DNA of 64,000 bases, from NCBI GenBank assembly GCA_946641515.1, contig CAMPBT010000003.1, positions 140,120-204,119 of the forward strand, read 5' to 3'. This DNA is from an uncultured Bacillales bacterium (lineage in GTDB: Bacteria; Bacillota_I; Bacilli_A; RFN20; CAG-449). Shown one piece after another: positions 34,164-42,900 of this stretch. The position numbers and the translations under genes are program-made. Under the pieces are notes generated by a model that did no database searches, was not told the DNA's origin, and saw only the letters and a program-made list of their open reading frames with translations. Within the stretch, counting starts at the first letter, position 1; every line of letters begins with the position of its first letter.

Positions 34164-35003
34164 TTAATACTTCAATGCTTTGTTTAATAATATTTCAAGA
34201 TTACTGCAAACCTCTATAAAACTATAGCCATTTGCATAATCATAATTACTAACGTATTTATTCCAAAAATCATTCATAGTTTTAGATTTTTTTATTTCAT
34301 CTATGACGTTATGATAATTATTTAATTTATTAATACTGTCGCGATGTTCAAACGTTTTTATTATCGCTTTTTTTAGTAAATTATAATCCATTTTATCTTT
34401 GTAGTTAATTGACAAAATATTTACATCATAAAAGTCTCTAGGTCTAGTGTTTAAAACAGATCTAGAAATAATAGATTCAATTTTTTCGGCTAAGATAGTA
34501 TATATACTGTAAGACATGACATTAATTTTTCTATCTTCTAATAACAATTTATATTCATATTTTATAGCACTAGGAACAATTATATCTCCTGTTGTAATAT
34601 CAATTTTTAAAATTACTGATAATGGATTAAAATCTGCATTCAGCGTTACTCGATACCCTTTATATGTATCGTTTTCTCTAATTTCTTGAATATTATTAAA
34701 TTTAAAAACAAAATTATCATTTAAATCTATTTTACATATATCTTCTAAAATCCTTCTTATTGATTCTTCGTTAACAGGGAAATGGCAAATTGTCGTATCC
34801 ATATCCATAGTTGTTCTTGAACCAATACCAATCAAAGAAGAAATCAGTAATCCACCTTTTAAAATAAAGTTTTTATTATATTTTGAAATAGACATCCTTT
34901 CTAAAAATCTTTCCAAAACATAATTTTGAAGAACTTGTTGAGGAGATATATTCTTTTCTATTGAGATACGCTTGATATCTGATTTTAATTTCATTGAATT
35001 CAC
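34164..35003 (-). CDS. abiEii: AbiEii family nucleotidyltransferase toxin (type IV TA), GTG start
   Basis: FILKGG, RTTMDMD, KIDITTGD, ILAEK, NTRPRDFYD. Confidence 0.9.
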   Translation of the reverse strand: MNSMKLKSDIKRISIEKNISPQQVLQNYVLERFLERMSISKYNKNFILKGGLLISSLIGIGSRTTMDMDTTICHFPVNEESIRRILEDICKIDLNDNFVFKFNNIQEIRENDTYKGYRVTLNADFNPLSVILKIDITTGDIIVPSAIKYEYKLLLEDRKINVMSYSIYTILAEKIESIISRSVLNTRPRDFYDVNILSINYKDKMDYNLLKKAIIKTFEHRDSINKLNNYHNVIDEIKKSKTMNDFWNKYVSNYDYANGYSFIEVCSNLEILLNKALKY

Positions 35004-35596
35004 TATAATAAAACCTCCATGTATGCTTTCACTCTATTTTCCACATTAAATTTTTTAGCATAATCCATAAGCAGTTCTAATTGTTTATTAGAGTCAATTG
35101 CATATGATTTAAACGCAGAAGTAATAATTTGAATATCAACATTATTCTTCGATTGTAAGATTTCACATAAAGATCTTTCTTTGCAATAAGCCCATACTTT
35201 ATTTCCATACGGAGTCTTTATTTGTATTAATCCATCCTTGTAATATTTATCATTTATATTTTTACAATTTATTCCTCTTTTCTTTGGATTTGATAGATTA
35301 TATGTTTGAGGGAATGACATATCTAATTTTTCAGGTGTACGATCACTTAATCCATTTAGATATAAAGAAGTATTCAATGAATAAATTCCTTTTTTAAAAC
35401 GTATTTGTTCATTTAGAAAATTATCATCTAAATATTCAGGCATAATATATACGCCTCTTGAACTTTTTACTAATCTACCTTTTTTTACTAAATATAAAAT
35501 AGAACCTCTTTTTATATTCAAATTAGTAGCAGCCAAAGTAGTAATTACACCATTATTAGCTTCTGCTATTCTTAATAAGGCTGATTTTGTATTCAT
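35003..35596 (-). CDS. abiEi: AbiEi family antitoxin / transcriptional regulator
   Basis: N-terminal wHTH (NNGVITT...LVKSSRGVY), IYSLNTSLYLNGLSDRTP, ERSLCEIL; 1-bp overlap with the toxin. Confidence 0.88.
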   Translation of the reverse strand: MNTKSALLRIAEANNGVITTLAATNLNIKRGSILYLVKKGRLVKSSRGVYIMPEYLDDNFLNEQIRFKKGIYSLNTSLYLNGLSDRTPEKLDMSFPQTYNLSNPKKRGINCKNINDKYYKDGLIQIKTPYGNKVWAYCKERSLCEILQSKNNVDIQIITSAFKSYAIDSNKQLELLMDYAKKFNVENRVKAYMEVLL

Positions 35597-37041: not shown

Positions 37042-38733
37042 TTATTCAGCTTTCTTATCATCAGATTTAATCATAGAAGCATCAATTATAGGTGTTTCAG
37101 TAGTTTCAGGTTTAGTAGCAAGTTTTTTAATAGGAAGTCTACCCATATATTTATCAATAATAGCCTCTGCTACCTTTATTCCATCAAGCGCAGAAGAAGT
37201 AATGCCTCCGCCATGAGAAGAGCCTTCTCCTGAAGGATAAATGCCTCTAATTGAAGAATCAAAAGTATCTGGATCTCTAATAATCTTAATAGGTGAAGAT
37301 GATCTAGTTTCTACCCCAGTCATAACCGCATCATCATTATCAAATAGTGAGAAACGTCTACTAAAGACATTTAAAGCTTCCTTTAAAGATTCAGAAACAA
37401 ACTTAGGAAAAATTTTATTAAAATCTGCAAAATAGAAACCAGGTTTATAAGAAGGTTTTATCTTGCCTAAACCATCAGTAACCTTATTATTTAAGAAATC
37501 ACCTACTCTTTGAACAGGAGCATAGTAAGGATAAGTAGGATTAAACGCTAATCTTTCTAAAGATTCCTGGAAATACATTCCGTCTAGCGGAGAATTAACA
37601 TAATAATCTTCTTTCTTAATACCTACTAATATAGCAGAGTTACAGTTAATTCCATCACGAGCATGGTTGGAAAAACCATTAGTAACAACAGTATTAGGTG
37701 AAGTAGAAGTATTAGCAACTTCTCCTCCAGGACACATACAGAAAGAATAAACCCCTCTATCTAAGCTTCTAAATTGAGCGCTAATTTGATAATCAGCACT
37801 TCCAAGTTTAGGATTAGAAGAATAATCACCATATTGAATCTTATTAAGATCTTCTTGAAGGTGTTCAATTCTTACACCAACAGAAAAATCTTTAGCTTCC
37901 ATCTTAAGATTTTGTTCATATAAATTAACGAATGTGTCTCTTGCAGAATGACCAATAGCAAGAATGACATCATCAGTTTCAATTACACATTTATTATTTT
38001 CTTTATCAATATAAGTAATAGATTTAACTTTACCTTTTTCTTCAGTAAATGATACATAAGTAGATTCCCACATAAAAGTACCACCTAAAGAGATGATTTC
38101 TTTTCTAATAGAACGAACTACACCAGGAAGTAAATCACTACCAATATGAGGTTTAGCGTCATAATAAATTTCTTTTGGAGCACCATGGTTAATAAATTCA
38201 TTTAAGATAAATCTAACACGTCTATCATTAACGCGAGTAAATAATTTACCATCAGAGAAAGTACCCGCTCCCCCTTCACCAAAACACATATTAGAATTTT
38301 CATTAACTACTCTAGTTCTAATGAATTCTTCAATATCTTTTTGTCTATCTTCAACCTTCTTACCTCTTTCAATAATAATAGGTTTAGCGCCAGCTCTCGC
38401 TAAAATTAATGCTGCAAACATTCCAGCAGGACCAAAGCCAACAACTACTGGACGCTTTTCAGGTTTAATCTCATCAATATGAATAGTTTCAACTAAATCA
38501 CTTAATTTAACATTCTTGTTATCAAGGATATTCTTTTTATCTGATAATAAACTAACAAGAACTGTATAAGTATATAAAATATGAGACTTGTTTCTTGCAT
38601 CAAGTGCTCTTTTAACTACTTTATAAGATCCAATCTTGCCTTGATCAATTTTTAACATCTTGGCAATTTTAATAGGTAATAATGATTCATCATCATTAAT
38701 ATCTAAATACACGTTACTAACTAATATTTCCAT
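37042..38733 (-). CDS. NAD(P)/FAD-dependent oxidoreductase (uncharacterised FAD-dependent dehydrogenase family)
   Basis: VVGFGPAG, FGEGGAGTFSDGKL, VYSFCMCPGG, GVETRSSSP, GGITSSALDG. Confidence 0.9.
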   Translation of the reverse strand: MEILVSNVYLDINDDESLLPIKIAKMLKIDQGKIGSYKVVKRALDARNKSHILYTYTVLVSLLSDKKNILDNKNVKLSDLVETIHIDEIKPEKRPVVVGFGPAGMFAALILARAGAKPIIIERGKKVEDRQKDIEEFIRTRVVNENSNMCFGEGGAGTFSDGKLFTRVNDRRVRFILNEFINHGAPKEIYYDAKPHIGSDLLPGVVRSIRKEIISLGGTFMWESTYVSFTEEKGKVKSITYIDKENNKCVIETDDVILAIGHSARDTFVNLYEQNLKMEAKDFSVGVRIEHLQEDLNKIQYGDYSSNPKLGSADYQISAQFRSLDRGVYSFCMCPGGEVANTSTSPNTVVTNGFSNHARDGINCNSAILVGIKKEDYYVNSPLDGMYFQESLERLAFNPTYPYYAPVQRVGDFLNNKVTDGLGKIKPSYKPGFYFADFNKIFPKFVSESLKEALNVFSRRFSLFDNDDAVMTGVETRSSSPIKIIRDPDTFDSSIRGIYPSGEGSSHGGGITSSALDGIKVAEAIIDKYMGRLPIKKLATKPETTETPIIDASMIKSDDKKAE

Positions 38734-38845
38734 AACAAATCCTTTTTAAACTTATAATAAGTTTATACCAAAATTATAGTTTAATTAATTATCAAATACA
38801 ATAAAACGCCATTTAGACTATATATGTAAAAATTTGCAAAAATAT

Positions 38846-38872
38846 TTAGCAAAGCTATTGACAGAGTGCTAA
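38846..38872 (+). promoter_or_regulatory. CIRCE element 1 (HrcA operator) overlapping the -35 box
   Basis: TTAGCAAAG-N9-GAGTGCTAA; consensus is TTAGCACTC-N9-GAGTGCTAA. Confidence 0.75.
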
Positions 38873-38885
38873 AAAGAATTATAAT
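38858..38885 (+). promoter_or_regulatory. Consensus sigma-A promoter
   Basis: TTGACA (38858-38863), 16 bp spacer, TATAAT (38880-38885). Confidence 0.85.
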
Positions 38886-38889
38886 GTAA

Positions 38890-38916
38890 TTAGCAAACAC
38901 GAATAGTGAGTGCTAA
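38890..38916 (+). promoter_or_regulatory. CIRCE element 2 at the predicted +1
   Basis: TTAGCAAAC-N9-GAGTGCTAA. Confidence 0.75.
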
Positions 38917-39045
38917 ATGATATAGATTAGTAATTATTAGAAGTAGACGATTTAATAATTACCAGCCAAATCTAAATCAAAAAAACATAAATGTATGCTC
39001 CCCTAAACAAGAAAAAGATGTAGCCAGCCACTACATCTTTTCTAA
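38892..39045 (+). ncRNA. Candidate HrcA-controlled small RNA (~150 nt)
   Basis: Promoter, 10-bp perfect stem GTAATTATTA/TAATAATTAC, CTCCCCT motif and terminator hairpin AAAGATGTAG/CTACATCTTT; no RBS-led ORF. Confidence 0.45.
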
Positions 39046-39759
39046 TTATATAACTCTAACAATAACGTCTCTATGTAAGCGTTTATATAAATATGCACTT
39101 AATGCTGCTCCACCAAGTGGACCAACAAAGAAAACAAAGACTTGGGATAAAGCTTCAAGATCATGATTAAATATTGCAGTACCTAAGCTAGTAGCAAGAG
39201 ATCTAGCAGGATTAAGAGAACATCCTGTTAAATTAATACCAACTAATACTAAAAAGAAAATTGTTGCACCTACGATTAATGAAGAATAATTCTTTAATCG
39301 AGTTTTAGTATTACCAATACTTAATACAATATATATAAATAAGAATGTTAAGAAGAATTCTACAAGTAATGATTCGACAACTGTTTCAGTAGTTAAACCT
39401 GCTTTATGATTAATTACATATGTACAAGCATCCCCTGCTAAATCAAAATTAAAGAATTTAGCAAGACCAAATATTGCTAGTGCACCAGTAAATGTACCAA
39501 GAATCTGGCAGCCAACATAAGCACTGAAAGCTTTAAGAGACATTTTTTCATTAATTAATGATGCTAAAGATACTGCTGGATTAAGATGTGCTCCAGATAT
39601 TTTGCCAAAAAGATAAGATAGACCCGCAACTACTAAACCAAATACTAATGAGATACCAATAACGTTGTTACCTCCATCAATACATGCGTATCCACAAGCA
39701 ATAAAGACTAATATAAATGAGCCGAAATATTCAGCAATCGATTTTTTAAATAATTCCAT
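39046..39759 (-). CDS. MIP family channel (aquaporin)
   Basis: Two NPA motifs: SGAHLNPAVS and SLNPARS. Confidence 0.95.
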   Translation of the reverse strand: MELFKKSIAEYFGSFILVFIACGYACIDGGNNVIGISLVFGLVVAGLSYLFGKISGAHLNPAVSLASLINEKMSLKAFSAYVGCQILGTFTGALAIFGLAKFFNFDLAGDACTYVINHKAGLTTETVVESLLVEFFLTFLFIYIVLSIGNTKTRLKNYSSLIVGATIFFLVLVGINLTGCSLNPARSLATSLGTAIFNHDLEALSQVFVFFVGPLGGAALSAYLYKRLHRDVIVRVI

Positions 39760-39931
39760 AATACGTACTCTCCTAAATGCGTACCTCGAAATACTATCAC
39801 TATATAAAATAATAAATTATAAAAAAACGCTTACAGATATAATAACTAATTAAAAATGATATTAATAATAAAATAACTATCAAAAAAGGAGACTAGATTT
39901 CTCTAATCTCCCAAGGGGGAAGTAAATAATA

Positions 39932-42900
39932 TTATTTTTCTTCGACTACTTCATGGAACTTCTGGAGTTTATTCCATCTATCCTGAGCGTATTTTTCACA
40001 CTTTGTAAGTAATTCTTCACAATGTTCTGGGTTTACCTTTGGTAATTGTGAATAACGTGTTTCACAAAGTAAGAAGTCTCTAAACTTGCTCCAATCTGGT
40101 GTTGGGCAATCGATTGTTAAAGGATCTTTGCCTTCAGCTTTGAGTCTTGGATCGTATCTGAAGATTGGGAAGTAACCACATTCAACAGCTTTCTTTTCTG
40201 TTAATTGAGCATTTGCCATACCGCCTTTAATACCATGGTTAACACATGGAGCGTAACAAATGATTAATGAAGGTCCGTTGTATGATTCAGCTTCTTTTAA
40301 TGCTTTAATTGCCTGGAGTTTATTTCCACCCATTGCAACTTGAGCAACATAGACATGGCCATAAGTCATAGCGATTAATGCTAAGAACTTCTTAGCAGTC
40401 TTCTTACCTGAAGCTGTGAACTTAGCAATAGAACCAGTTTGTGATGACTTAGATGATTGTCCACCTGTATTTGAGTAAACTTCAGTATCGAGAACTAAGA
40501 TATTAACATCTTCTTCGTTTGCAATAACGTGATCAAGTCCGCCATAACCAATATCGTATGACCAACCATCACCACCGATAATCCAAACTGATTTATCGAG
40601 TAAATCGCCTTTTAATTTTAAGACTTCTTTTACGCCTTCACATGCTGATTTTTCAACAAGTTCGATTAATTTATCCTTAATTTCTCTTACGTGTTCTCTA
40701 TTCTTGATATTTGCTTCGTAATCTTCAATTAATGATTTGAGTTCTGGTTCAACAGCATCTTTGTTTTCATCAAAGATTCTGCAGATTTCTGCTAACTTAT
40801 AGTTAGTAGCAATTCTCATACCATAACCGAATTCAGCGTTATCTTCAAATAATGAGTTAGCCCAAGCAACACCTTCACCGTTCTTATCTGTACAGAATGG
40901 AGATAATGGAGTTGATGAGTTATAAATTGAAGAACAACCAGTAGTATTTGCAATTAACATATCTTTACCAAATAACTGAGTTGCAAGTCTATAATATGGA
41001 GTTTCTCCACATCCAGCACAAGCACCAGATACTTCTTGGTAAGGCATTAAGAATGCTGCACCCTTAACTGATGTTACTGGAGCACCACCTGTCTTGTATT
41101 CAATATTCTTGTATAAATAATCTGCACCTTCTTCATTGAAGAATTGTGATTTAGCTTCTTCCATAACAAGAGCTTTTTGTTTAACGATTGTTCCATCAGC
41201 TTGTTTAACTGGCTTACCTGGACATTCAGTAACACAAAGACCACATCCAACACAGTTTCTTGGAGAAACTTGAATTCTGAATTTTAAGCCTTTAGCTTGT
41301 GGTCCGCCCATTGCGTCAAGGACATCATCCTTAGCGTATTCTGGCATCTTAGCCATTTCTGCTTCATTGATTAAGAATGGTCTAATTGTAGCGTGAGGAC
41401 ATACGAATGCACACTGGTTACACTGGATACAGTTTTCCTTGTGCCATACTGGAACTCTATCAGCAATAGAACGTTTTTCTTGGAAAGCAACGTTATTTCT
41501 CATAGAACCATCAAGTAAATTGTCTTTTGTAAATCTTGATACTGGTAAATCGTAACCATCTAACATATTGATTGGATTAACGAATGTATCGAAGTATTCA
41601 TCACCTGTAGATTTATGTAATGATTTAACTTCAAGATTTGCCCATTCTGCTTTAACTGGGATTTCAACTAAACCTGCTGCACCCTGGTCGATAGCATCGT
41701 AGTTCATCTTAACGACATCATCACCCTTCTTAGCATAAGACTTCTTAGCGAATTTCTTCATCCATTCTTGAGCATCTGCAAATGGCATAATGTTCTGGTT
41801 GAGATAGAAGAATGATGCTTGTAAAACAGTATTTGTTCTTCTGCCTAGACCAATCTTACCGGCGATAGCGTTAGCATCGATAATGTAGAACTTAGCATGT
41901 TTTTCTGCTAATTGTTTCTTCATTAAATTTGGAAGTCTTGCTTCAATTTCATCTGCAGGAATATCTGTATTAAGTAAGAATGTACCTCCATCCTTTAAGC
42001 ACTTAATCATGTTGAACTTAAAGACATATGAATCAAGTGAGCATGATAAGAAGTCAGCTTCTTCAATATAATATGTTGAGTGAATTGGTTCTTTACCAAA
42101 TCTTAAGTGAGATCTAGTAACACCACCTGATTTACGTGAGTCATATGCGAAATATGCTTGAGCATATTGACCAGTAGCATCACCAATAATCTTAATAGAA
42201 GATTTATTTGCGGAAACTGTACCATCTGAGCCTAAACCATAGAATAAGCATGAAACGTAGTTTCCTTTTACTGAGAACTTTTCATCAACTGGGATTGATA
42301 AATGAGTAACATCATCATTAATACCAACTGTGAATGAGTTCCATGGATTGTTATTTAAGAAATCATAAACTGATTTTAAGTGTTTTGGCTGAGTATCTTT
42401 TGATGATAAACCATAACGTCCACCAACAAGAACATCAACTTTTCTACCTTCTTGTTCAAGAGCAGCAACTACATCTAAATAAAGAGGTTCACCTGCTGCA
42501 CCCATTTCTTTAGTTCTATCTAAAACTGCAATCTTCTTAACTGAAGCAGGAATTACTGAAACTAAATGTTTTGCAGAGAATGGTCTATATAAATGTACTT
42601 TAACAATACCAACTTTTTCTCCTCTTTCATTTAATGTATCAACAACTTCTCTTAATGCTTCTGTTACTGAGCCCATTGCAATGATAACTCTATCAGCATC
42701 TTTAGCACCATAGTAAACGAATGGAGCATATTCTCTACCTGTTAATCTTGTTGCTTCTTTGAAATATTCTTCAGCAACTTCAACAACGTGAGCATAATGT
42801 AAGTTCTGAGCTTCTCTACCTTGGAAGTAGATATCATCGTTTTCTGCTCCACCTCTTGTTACAGGATGAGTATGTGGGTTTAATGCATTGTCTTTGAATG

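What the first reader, a model, noticed from the sequence alone, without database searches (positions are those of the whole stretch)
38846..39045. Double-CIRCE heat-shock promoter that drives no protein: candidate HrcA-regulated sRNA
Directly seen: TTGACA-16-TATAAT on the plus strand with one CIRCE over the -35 and a second at +1. About 150 nt follow with no RBS-led ORF, then a terminator shared with the convergent aquaporin. The transcript has a hairpin (GTAATTATTA/TAATAATTAC, closed further by TAGATT/AATCTA) and an unpaired CUCCCCU motif (38998-39004) complementary to AGGGGAG-type RBSs, such as the uraA RBS. The divergent gene has its own promoter (38773-38801) clear of the operators. Established knowledge: HrcA/CIRCE normally controls groESL, dnaK and clpB, and C-rich seeds typify Firmicute trans-acting sRNAs. 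Inference: this is either a heat-induced regulatory sRNA or the headless promoter of a deleted chaperone operon.
Basis: partly seen in the sequence, partly recalled or inferred. Interest (0 to 1): 0.78.

Follow-up and report, generated by a model that had tools for sequence, protein, structure and literature searches.

The report
Orphaned heat-shock promoter of deleted hsp20
The ORF-less heat-shock promoter is what remains after a small heat-shock protein gene (hsp20) was deleted from between its own promoter and terminator; this is an ordinary gene-loss scar, and nothing yet shows that it became a regulatory RNA.

Summary
A perfect TTGACA-16-TATAAT promoter, the only one in the 64-kb window, carries two CIRCE-like operators. 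About 150 nt without an ORF follow, ending at the terminator shared with the aquaporin gene.

Comparison explains it. The two nearest sister lineages (75-76% identity in the neighbouring FAD protein) have the same promoter, the same operators and the same 3'UTR with the CUCCCCU motif and terminator. Between them they keep a GGAGG ribosome-binding site and a 152-aa HSP20 gene. A more distant lineage also drives an hsp20 from a double-CIRCE promoter. In the window, site and ORF (about 480 nt) are replaced by 57 nt of untraceable filler that forms the hairpin.

Ten independent contigs from at least seven samples share the identical junction, so it is a fixed deletion and not a misassembly.

The sRNA reading is unproven:
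- No base pair covaries (0 of 45).
- No RNA contig covers the locus.
- Target prediction is not significant.
- Hints of continued constraint are marginal (p 0.002-0.05).

The parts
38846..38872 (.). CIRCE-like operator 1 (TTAGCAAAG-CTATTGACA-GAGTGCTAA). It overlaps the -35 hexamer.
   Evidence: One search gives 3 mismatches, all in the inner left arm. The operator is conserved in L003, L001 and L092 upstream of hsp20.
38858..38885 (+). Sigma-A promoter TTGACA-16-TATAAT, with -35 at 38858-38863 and -10 at 38880-38885.
   Evidence: 12 of 12 matches, and the only perfect consensus in the window. It is orthologous to the hsp20 promoter of L003 and L001.
38890..38916 (.). CIRCE-like operator 2 (TTAGCAAAC-ACGAATAGT-GAGTGCTAA). 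It spans the inferred transcription start at about 38892.
   Evidence: One search gives 2 mismatches. In relatives an operator at the same position is followed by AATGGAGG and the hsp20 ATG. The transcription start is inferred from the -10 position.
38917..38919 (+). Last three bases (ATG) of the conserved hsp20 5' leader. The left deletion breakpoint lies after 38919.
   Evidence: In alignment A1, identity with L003 and L001 runs through GTGCTAAATG. The relatives then continue with GAGGTAAA...ATG.
38920..38976 (+). 57-nt filler that replaces the RBS and the 459-nt hsp20 ORF. It contains the hairpin at 38923-38974.
   Evidence: The filler is unique in the window. It has no significant similarity to hsp20 or to any fetched locus.
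38977..39011 (+). Remnant of the hsp20 3'UTR, including the CUCCCCU motif at 38998-39004.
   Evidence: It aligns to the stretch directly after the hsp20 stop codon in L003 and L001. That stretch has no substitutions between L003 and L001, although third codon positions of hsp20 differ by 29%.
39012..39042 (.). Bidirectional intrinsic terminator. It was the hsp20 terminator on the + strand and serves the MIP gene on the - strand.
   Evidence: 13-pair stem; conserved in all lineages. The + strand U-run is 4 here against 6 in L003 and L001.
37042..38733 (-). Divergent neighbour, an FAD-dependent protein (PF21688). It was used as the synteny anchor.
39046..39759 (-). Convergent neighbour, an MIP/aquaporin gene.
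   Evidence: The same order MIP, hsp20, FAD is seen in L003.

Best explanation
The region is the regulatory shell of a small heat-shock protein gene (hsp20, alpha-crystallin family) whose ribosome-binding site and ORF were deleted.

In the ancestor, a strong sigma-A promoter carried two HrcA operators (CIRCE), one over the -35 and one over the transcription start. It drove a monocistronic hsp20 mRNA that ended in a conserved 3'UTR and a bidirectional terminator.

In the common ancestor of this species-level lineage, about 480 nt (GGAGG plus 152 codons) were lost. A 57-nt filler of unknown origin, which happens to be a palindrome, now joins the 5' leader (up to 38919) to the 3'UTR (from 38977).

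Shown here:
- orthology of promoter, operators, 3'UTR and terminator with the hsp20 loci of relatives;
- absence of the ORF;
- fixation of the junction in many independent assemblies.

Inferred:
- The promoter still fires when HrcA releases it on heat shock.
- It then yields an RNA of about 150 nt (roughly 38892 to 39041).
- This RNA is a by-product of gene loss and not a dedicated regulator.

I put the deletion origin at about 0.93. The figure of 0.6 applies to the full statement, including 'no selected function now'.
For: 1. Sister lineages L003 (JGI contig) and L001/L002 (ENA contigs) have 75-76% identity in the FAD protein. They carry a 152-aa PF00011 HSP20 gene divergent from the FAD gene.

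2. Alignment A1 and the raw sequences show the same TTTAGCAAA..TTGACAGAGTGC.AAA..TATAAT..TTAGCAA..GAGTGCTAAATG in these lineages. They then have GGAGG-ATG-hsp20-stop, followed by TCATAAAAACATAAATGTACACTCCCCTAAAC and the same terminator.

3. Polarity: a more distant lineage (L092/L093, a 136-aa HSP20) also has a double-CIRCE promoter followed by GGAGG and hsp20. Its promoter matches window 38854-38918 at 79%. The promoter-hsp20 link is therefore ancestral and the window state is derived.

4. The same junction is present in L004, L006, L007, L008, L094-L097 and L098, and in contigs of runs X4, X5 and X7.

5. No coding potential remains, and there is no hsp20 elsewhere in the window.

6. No covariation: 0 of 45 predicted pairs vary.

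7. The overall substitution rate of the remnant is 10 events in 200 nt. That is not clearly below neighbouring intergenic DNA, at 9/112, 11/90 and 13/172.

8. CIRCE-controlled sHSP genes are documented in lactobacilli (PMC3179173, PMC6503756).
Against: - Core promoter and operator positions have taken none of the 7 substitution events seen in 38846-38919 across the deleted clade. The hypergeometric p is 0.002 with outer half-sites counted as core, and 0.048 with full 9-nt arms.
- The transcript body at 38920-39011 shows 3 events where about 8 are expected at the four-fold-site rate (p about 0.035).
- Both results hint that something is still selected.
- The promoter remains a perfect consensus.
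- Expression could not be tested either way. RNA contigs cover only the highly expressed PFOR gene.
Confidence: 0.6

Rival explanations
1. Exapted relic. After the hsp20 ORF was lost, the fused 5' leader, hairpin and 3'UTR transcript was kept by selection as a heat-inducible, HrcA-controlled small RNA. It would inherit its place in the heat-shock regulon from the parental gene, as OxyS did from a peroxidase mRNA. The C-rich stretch CUCCCCU would act as the seed against G-rich ribosome-binding sites.
For: - The promoter is intact and perfect, and a terminator follows.
- There are zero substitutions in -35, -10, the outer CIRCE half-sites, the hairpin stems, the C-rich motif and the terminator. 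This holds across a clade with about 9% events per four-fold site (p 0.002-0.05).
- The two changes at 38922 and 38975 face each other in the helix and turn an A.A mismatch into G.U.
- The 3'UTR segment carrying the motif was already under strong constraint in hsp20-bearing relatives.
- A precedent for this route of sRNA birth exists (PMC8825220).
Against: - There is no covariation.
- There is no transcript evidence.
- The best predicted targets in the window are the permease at -16.9 and MIP at -16.5 kcal/mol. These are matched or beaten by 12% of shuffled seeds.
- The statistical hints are marginal and depend on how core positions are defined.
- The terminator is constrained anyway by the MIP gene.
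- The minimum age of the deletion is short, so simple lack of time to decay explains most of the conservation.
Confidence: 0.27
2. The operators are retained for a DNA-level role. They could act as an HrcA decoy that tunes free repressor. HrcA-dependent convergent transcription could interfere with the aquaporin gene. Or they could control the divergent FAD-dependent gene.
For: - Core operator positions are conserved.
- The + strand U-run of the terminator is shortened to 4, so some read-through antisense to MIP is conceivable.
Against: - The operators lie 44 nt or more upstream of the FAD gene's own -35. The distance is variable, with 20-35 nt more in L001 and L003.
- In L092 the same promoter sits beside unrelated genes, so there is no conserved link to either neighbour.
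- No data on antisense transcripts exist.
Confidence: 0.07
3. A dedicated, ancestral HrcA-regulated sRNA gene that never belonged to a protein-coding gene.
For: It has promoter plus terminator architecture and a stable fold.
Against: Every conserved part of it is orthologous to the 5' or 3' end of an hsp20 transcription unit in relatives. The only lineage-specific part is the 57-nt filler.
Confidence: 0.02
4. Assembly artefact: a collapsed or chimeric join that removed hsp20.
For: Logan contigs of the source sample break at 38778/38856 because of strain polymorphism.
Against: The same junction occurs in ten independent contigs from ENA, JGI, Logan and GenBank WGS assemblies of different samples. 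Single contigs span 38856-40580 and 38300-39180.
Confidence: 0.01

Closest known systems
CIRCE/HrcA-controlled small heat-shock genes of lactobacilli (hsp16 of Lactobacillus acidophilus NCFM, PMC3179173; hsp3 of L. plantarum, PMC6503756)
   Same: A sigma-A promoter with the TTAGCACTC-N9-GAGTGCTAA type operator stands in front of a monocistronic alpha-crystallin sHSP gene. That is the ancestral state of this locus, as seen in L003, L001 and L092.
   Different: - There are two operators here, one over the -35 and one over +1, not one.
- The inner left arms are degenerate (TTAGCAAAC/G).
- In the window the sHSP gene itself is gone.
Class I heat-shock operons groESL and hrcA-grpE-dnaK of Bacillus subtilis (general knowledge)
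   Same: The same operator family and the same logic apply: HrcA represses a vegetative promoter until heat titrates GroEL.
   Different: Those operons have a single CIRCE between -10 and the start codon and encode the major chaperones. Nothing of that kind is encoded here or at this position in relatives.
OxyS, an sRNA that evolved from a fragment of a peroxidase mRNA and kept the OxyR-controlled promoter (PMC8825220)
   Same: A stress gene is replaced by a short non-coding unit that keeps the parental stress-responsive promoter and parts of the parental mRNA.
   Different: OxyS has demonstrated expression, targets and wide conservation. Here none of these is shown, and the event is young and confined to one species-level lineage.
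Orphaned CIRCE after hsp20 loss noted earlier in this scan in another phylum (finding e1-1018887; AI note, unchecked by me)
   Same: It describes the same kind of scar: an HrcA operator left behind when hsp20 was deleted.
   Different: It is in a different genome, with a single operator and no retained perfect promoter and terminator pair.

Membership tests
CIRCE/HrcA operator | 9-nt inverted repeat TTAGCACTC-N9-GAGTGCTAA with an exact 9-nt spacer | tested here: met
   One search finds two sites with 3 and 2 mismatches and exact N9. Shuffles give 0.03 expected. The right arms are perfect, and the mismatches are confined to positions 7-9 of the left arms.
CIRCE/HrcA operator | Overlaps or directly follows a vegetative (sigma-A) promoter | tested here: met
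   operator 1 covers the -35, and operator 2 starts 4 nt after the -10.
CIRCE/HrcA operator | Precedes a chaperone or heat-shock gene | tested here: not met
   There is no ORF downstream in the window. The feature is met at the orthologous loci L003, L001 and L092, where hsp20 follows.
CIRCE/HrcA operator | hrcA present in the same genome, and CIRCE also at groESL or dnaK | not testable with these tools
No chaperone gene or further CIRCE lies in the 64-kb window.
Gene-deletion remnant (orphaned regulatory region) | An intact orthologous gene at the syntenic position in relatives, with conserved flanks on both sides of the gap | tested here: met
   the order is PFOR, (MIP), hsp20, FAD, DUF5662. 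The promoter and the 3'UTR with terminator align on either side of the missing ORF.
Gene-deletion remnant (orphaned regulatory region) | Recognisable residue of the lost coding sequence | tested here: not met
   In one search the best local match is 10 nt (AAGTAGACGA), and 36-39% of shuffles reach it. tblastn with HSP20 finds nothing. The ORF is cleanly gone, and the filler is of unknown origin.
Trans-acting base-pairing sRNA | Own promoter and intrinsic terminator enclosing a short non-coding unit | tested here: met
Trans-acting base-pairing sRNA | A detectable discrete transcript | tested here: inconclusive
   Six metatranscriptome runs (X19-X25, all Logan contigs) cover only PFOR, at depth 3-6. 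None covers 38300-39900. Depth 0 in contigs does not show absence.
Trans-acting base-pairing sRNA | Structure or seed conserved with covariation beyond neutral expectation | tested here: not met
   0 of 45 pairs vary. The rate tests are marginal.
Trans-acting base-pairing sRNA | Seed complementarity to targets better than chance | tested here: not met
   the best duplex is -16.9 kcal/mol with the permease translation-initiation region, and 12% of shuffled seeds do as well. Only the 52 genes of the window were tested.

The most novel reading that the evidence does not exclude
The scar is a nascent regulatory RNA caught shortly after birth. Deleting the hsp20 ORF fused the CIRCE-bearing leader to an already constrained, C-rich 3'UTR module. 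That would create a heat-inducible, HrcA-controlled sRNA of about 150 nt that selection now maintains. It would be an independent Gram-positive parallel to the origin of OxyS from a peroxidase mRNA. It would also be the first sRNA assigned to an HrcA regulon in this group.
Probability: 0.25. Interest if true: 0.7.

Novelty: new member of a known kind. Interest (0 to 1): 0.3.

Why it matters
As it stands, this is a well-documented example of how a bacterium loses a stress gene but keeps its switch. It shows that an ORF-less CIRCE promoter should first be read as a deletion scar.

It also records that hsp20 genes of this uncultured gut Bacilli clade sit under a double-CIRCE promoter, and that they carry an unusually conserved 3'UTR.

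If the remnant turned out to be expressed and selected, it would give a datable, population-level snapshot of an sRNA arising from a protein-coding gene and inheriting its regulon. So far that process has been documented mainly for OxyS.

Tried and rejected
- **Rfam:** an E-value-mode search over 38000-40000 found nothing meaningful. The best hits were snoRNA or miRNA noise, far below gathering scores.
- **Small ORF:** none has an RBS.
- **Origin of the 57-nt filler:** it does not come from hsp20 (not significant). It is not a repeat in the window. It shares no 15-mer, even with 1 mismatch allowed, with any fetched locus.
- **icaR-like pairing:** I tested whether the C-rich 3'UTR pairs with the hsp20 Shine-Dalgarno in L003 and L001. 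Duplex energies equalled the shuffle means, so I rejected the idea.
- **Target prediction for CUCCCCU within the window:** not significant.
- **Metatranscriptomes:** six runs were uninformative.
- **Genome-contig scans:**
  - The single-protein scan found nothing.
The nearest named genomes were therefore not obtained.
- **Metagenome-contig scans:**
  - My first pattern had a spacer one base too short and found nothing.
  - The corrected pattern returned one contig identical to the window.
- **More distant FAD-protein relatives (55-58% identity):** their synteny differs, so they say nothing about this site.

Full report
**Setting.** The window is AT-rich (32% G+C) and reads in the standard code. 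It comes from an uncultured gut or rumen bacterium.
- The same DNA is found in cattle and other gut metagenomes.
- The nearest named relatives of the neighbouring protein are MAGs labelled Erysipelotrichales, Bacillales, Bacilli or Anaeroplasmataceae.
- Almost all genes run on the minus strand.
- The finding lies in the 312-nt gap between an FAD-dependent protein gene (37042-38733, minus; PF21688) and an MIP/aquaporin gene (39046-39759, minus). PFOR follows further on.

**Observation.**
- Two CIRCE-like sites lie at 38846-38872 and 38890-38916, with 3 and 2 mismatches to TTAGCACTC-N9-GAGTGCTAA. Shuffles give 0.03 expected.
- They bracket a 12/12 sigma-A promoter at 38858-38885. It is the only perfect TTGACA-N16-18-TATAAT in 64 kb.
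- Downstream there is no RBS-led ORF.
- The RNA from about 38892 to 39045 folds into the CIRCE stem, a long A/U-rich hairpin, an open stretch containing CUCCCCU, and the terminator. The fold energy is -32.5 kcal/mol, z = -5.95.
- Rfam has nothing for it.

**What it is.** I searched with the FAD protein and fetched the contigs of its closest relatives outside the species, at 75-76% identity.
- In L003 the order is PFOR, MIP, HSP20 (152 aa, PF00011, opposite strand), FAD, DUF5662.
- In L001 and L002 the order is the same but without MIP.
- Reading those loci in the window's orientation and aligning them gives a one-to-one match up to GTGCTAAATG at window 38919. The match covers operator 1, the -35, the -10 and operator 2.
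- The relatives then continue with GAGGTAAA, ATG, 152 codons and a stop.
- The match resumes at TCA(T/A)AAAAACATAAATGTA..CTCCCCTAAAC (window 38977 onward) and runs through the identical terminator stem-loop.
- The 'seed' CUCCCCU is therefore part of the hsp20 3'UTR and not a feature of a dedicated sRNA gene.

**Polarity.** An hsp20 search led to a different lineage, L092/L093.
- Its 136-aa HSP20 is preceded by aTAGCACTC-N9-cAGTGCTAA over TTGACA, then TATAAT, then TTAGCACTT-N9-GAGTGCTAA, GGAGG and ATG.
- That promoter matches window 38854-38918 at 79%.
- The double-CIRCE promoter is thus the hsp20 promoter of a wider clade. The ORF-less state is derived, so this is a deletion and not an insertion in the relatives.
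- HrcA/CIRCE control of sHSP genes is known from lactobacilli (PMC3179173, PMC6503756).

**Not an artefact, and fixed.** The identical junction occurs in these sources:
- L004, L006, L007 and L008;
- L094-L097;
- L098;
- contigs of runs X4, X5 and X7.

These come from at least seven samples and four sub-lineages that differ from the window by up to about 10% at four-fold sites. The hsp20-bearing sister lineage co-occurs in two of the same samples.

**Relic or new RNA?** There is no hsp20 elsewhere in the window. The filler cannot be traced to hsp20 or to anything else fetched.

Evidence on the transcript:
- None of the 45 predicted pairs varies, so there is no covariation.
- Positions 38922 and 38975 face each other in the helix. 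They read A.A in the window and G.U in L004 and L006. This is suggestive, but it is a single event.
- Six metatranscriptome runs contain this organism's PFOR mRNA. In four of them its contigs end at 39916/39917, at the predicted PFOR terminator. None covers 38300-39900. At depths of 3-6 for the most abundant mRNA, this says nothing about a repressed small RNA.

Substitution events on the clade's tree:

| Region | Events / sites | Rate |
|---|---|---|
| Four-fold sites | 62/686 | 9.0% |
| Three neighbouring intergenic regions | 9/112, 11/90, 13/172 | 7.6-12% |
| Promoter and operators | 7/74 | 9.5% |
| Filler | 2/57 | 3.5% |
| 3'UTR remnant | 1/35 | 2.9% |
| Terminator | 0/34 | 0% |

Tests for continued constraint:
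- All seven promoter-region events avoid the -35, the -10, TTAGCA and GAGTGCTAA. The p-value is 0.002, or 0.048 if the full 9-nt arms count as core.
- Filler plus 3'UTR have 3 events against about 8 expected (p about 0.035).
- These are hints of continued constraint. They are marginal and partly post hoc, and a deletion that is simply young would give the same pattern.

Tests of the C-rich motif:
- Pairing with the best in-window target, the permease RBS AGGGGAG, is not better than shuffles (12%).
- Pairing with the hsp20 Shine-Dalgarno in relatives is not better than shuffles either.

One real oddity remains. In the hsp20-bearing lineages, the roughly 70 nt after the stop codon have no substitutions between L003 and L001, while third codon positions of hsp20 differ by 29%. 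The 3'UTR module was therefore under selection before the deletion, for an unknown reason.

**Mechanism proposed.** Ancestrally, HrcA bound both operators, occluded the -35 and the start site, and released them on heat shock to give hsp20 mRNA. Now the same switch most likely still works but produces only a leader-hairpin-3'UTR RNA of about 150 nt, which stops at the terminator shared with MIP.
- The + strand U-run is 4 here against 6 in relatives, which fits relaxed need for termination.
- I rate the deletion origin at about 0.93.
- I rate 'no selected function now' at about 0.6.
- I rate an OxyS-like co-option (PMC8825220) at about 0.25-0.3.

I did not test it.

**Limits.** Presence of hrcA, other CIRCE sites and other sHSP genes in this genome is therefore unknown.

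**Verdict.** The sRNA headline is unsupported but not excluded. This is an ordinary kind of feature, a gene-loss scar, in a neat and well-resolved example.

Noticed in passing
window 34164-35596: A two-gene module is present here: an AbiEii-family toxin (279 aa, PF08843) and an adjacent 197-aa gene, presumably the AbiEi antitoxin. It sits between the 150-aa gene and the DAO-family gene. It is absent at that position in L004, L006 and L001, so it is a strain-specific insertion of a type IV toxin-antitoxin or abortive-infection pair.
   Followed up: partly
L003 4606-4681 and L001 5249-5324 (window 38977-39045): The hsp20 3'UTR plus terminator has no substitutions, only edge indels, between two lineages whose hsp20 third codon positions differ by 29%. 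The roughly 35 nt before the terminator, which include CUCCCCU, are under unexplained strong constraint. Pairing with the gene's own Shine-Dalgarno was tested and rejected.
   Followed up: partly
window 38982-39004, minus strand: On the MIP-sense strand, just past the MIP terminator, lies AGGGGAG-N9-ATG-TTT-TTT-TGA. This is a strong Shine-Dalgarno with a 3-codon mini-ORF. It is conserved as ATG-TTT-TTA-TGA in L003 and L001. It may only mirror the conserved 3'UTR sequence.
   Followed up: no
L001 5197-5324: The L001/L002 lineage lacks the MIP/aquaporin gene between PFOR and hsp20, which the window and L003 both have. It still keeps the same hsp20 terminator, so that terminator is not conserved only because of MIP.
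   Followed up: no
window 39887-39917: PFOR mRNA contigs in four metatranscriptome runs (X20, X21, X23, and nearly so X22) end at 39916/39917. That is the foot of the predicted terminator at 39912-39887. This is direct support for that terminator and for high PFOR expression in vivo.
   Followed up: partly
window 38922 and 38975: These two polymorphic positions face each other in the predicted hairpin. They read A.A in the window, L008, L094 and L097, and G.U in L004, L006 and L007.
   Followed up: partly
window 38779-38856: Logan contigs of the source sample break here because at least two strains of the species co-occur. The variants are 38779 G>A and 38853 A>G. This is strain heterogeneity and not a misjoin.
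   Followed up: partly
L001 6001-7878, L003 5380-7239: The FAD-dependent protein is called at 619-625 aa in the sister lineages, against 563 aa in the window's lineage. The cause of the length difference was not examined.
   Followed up: no
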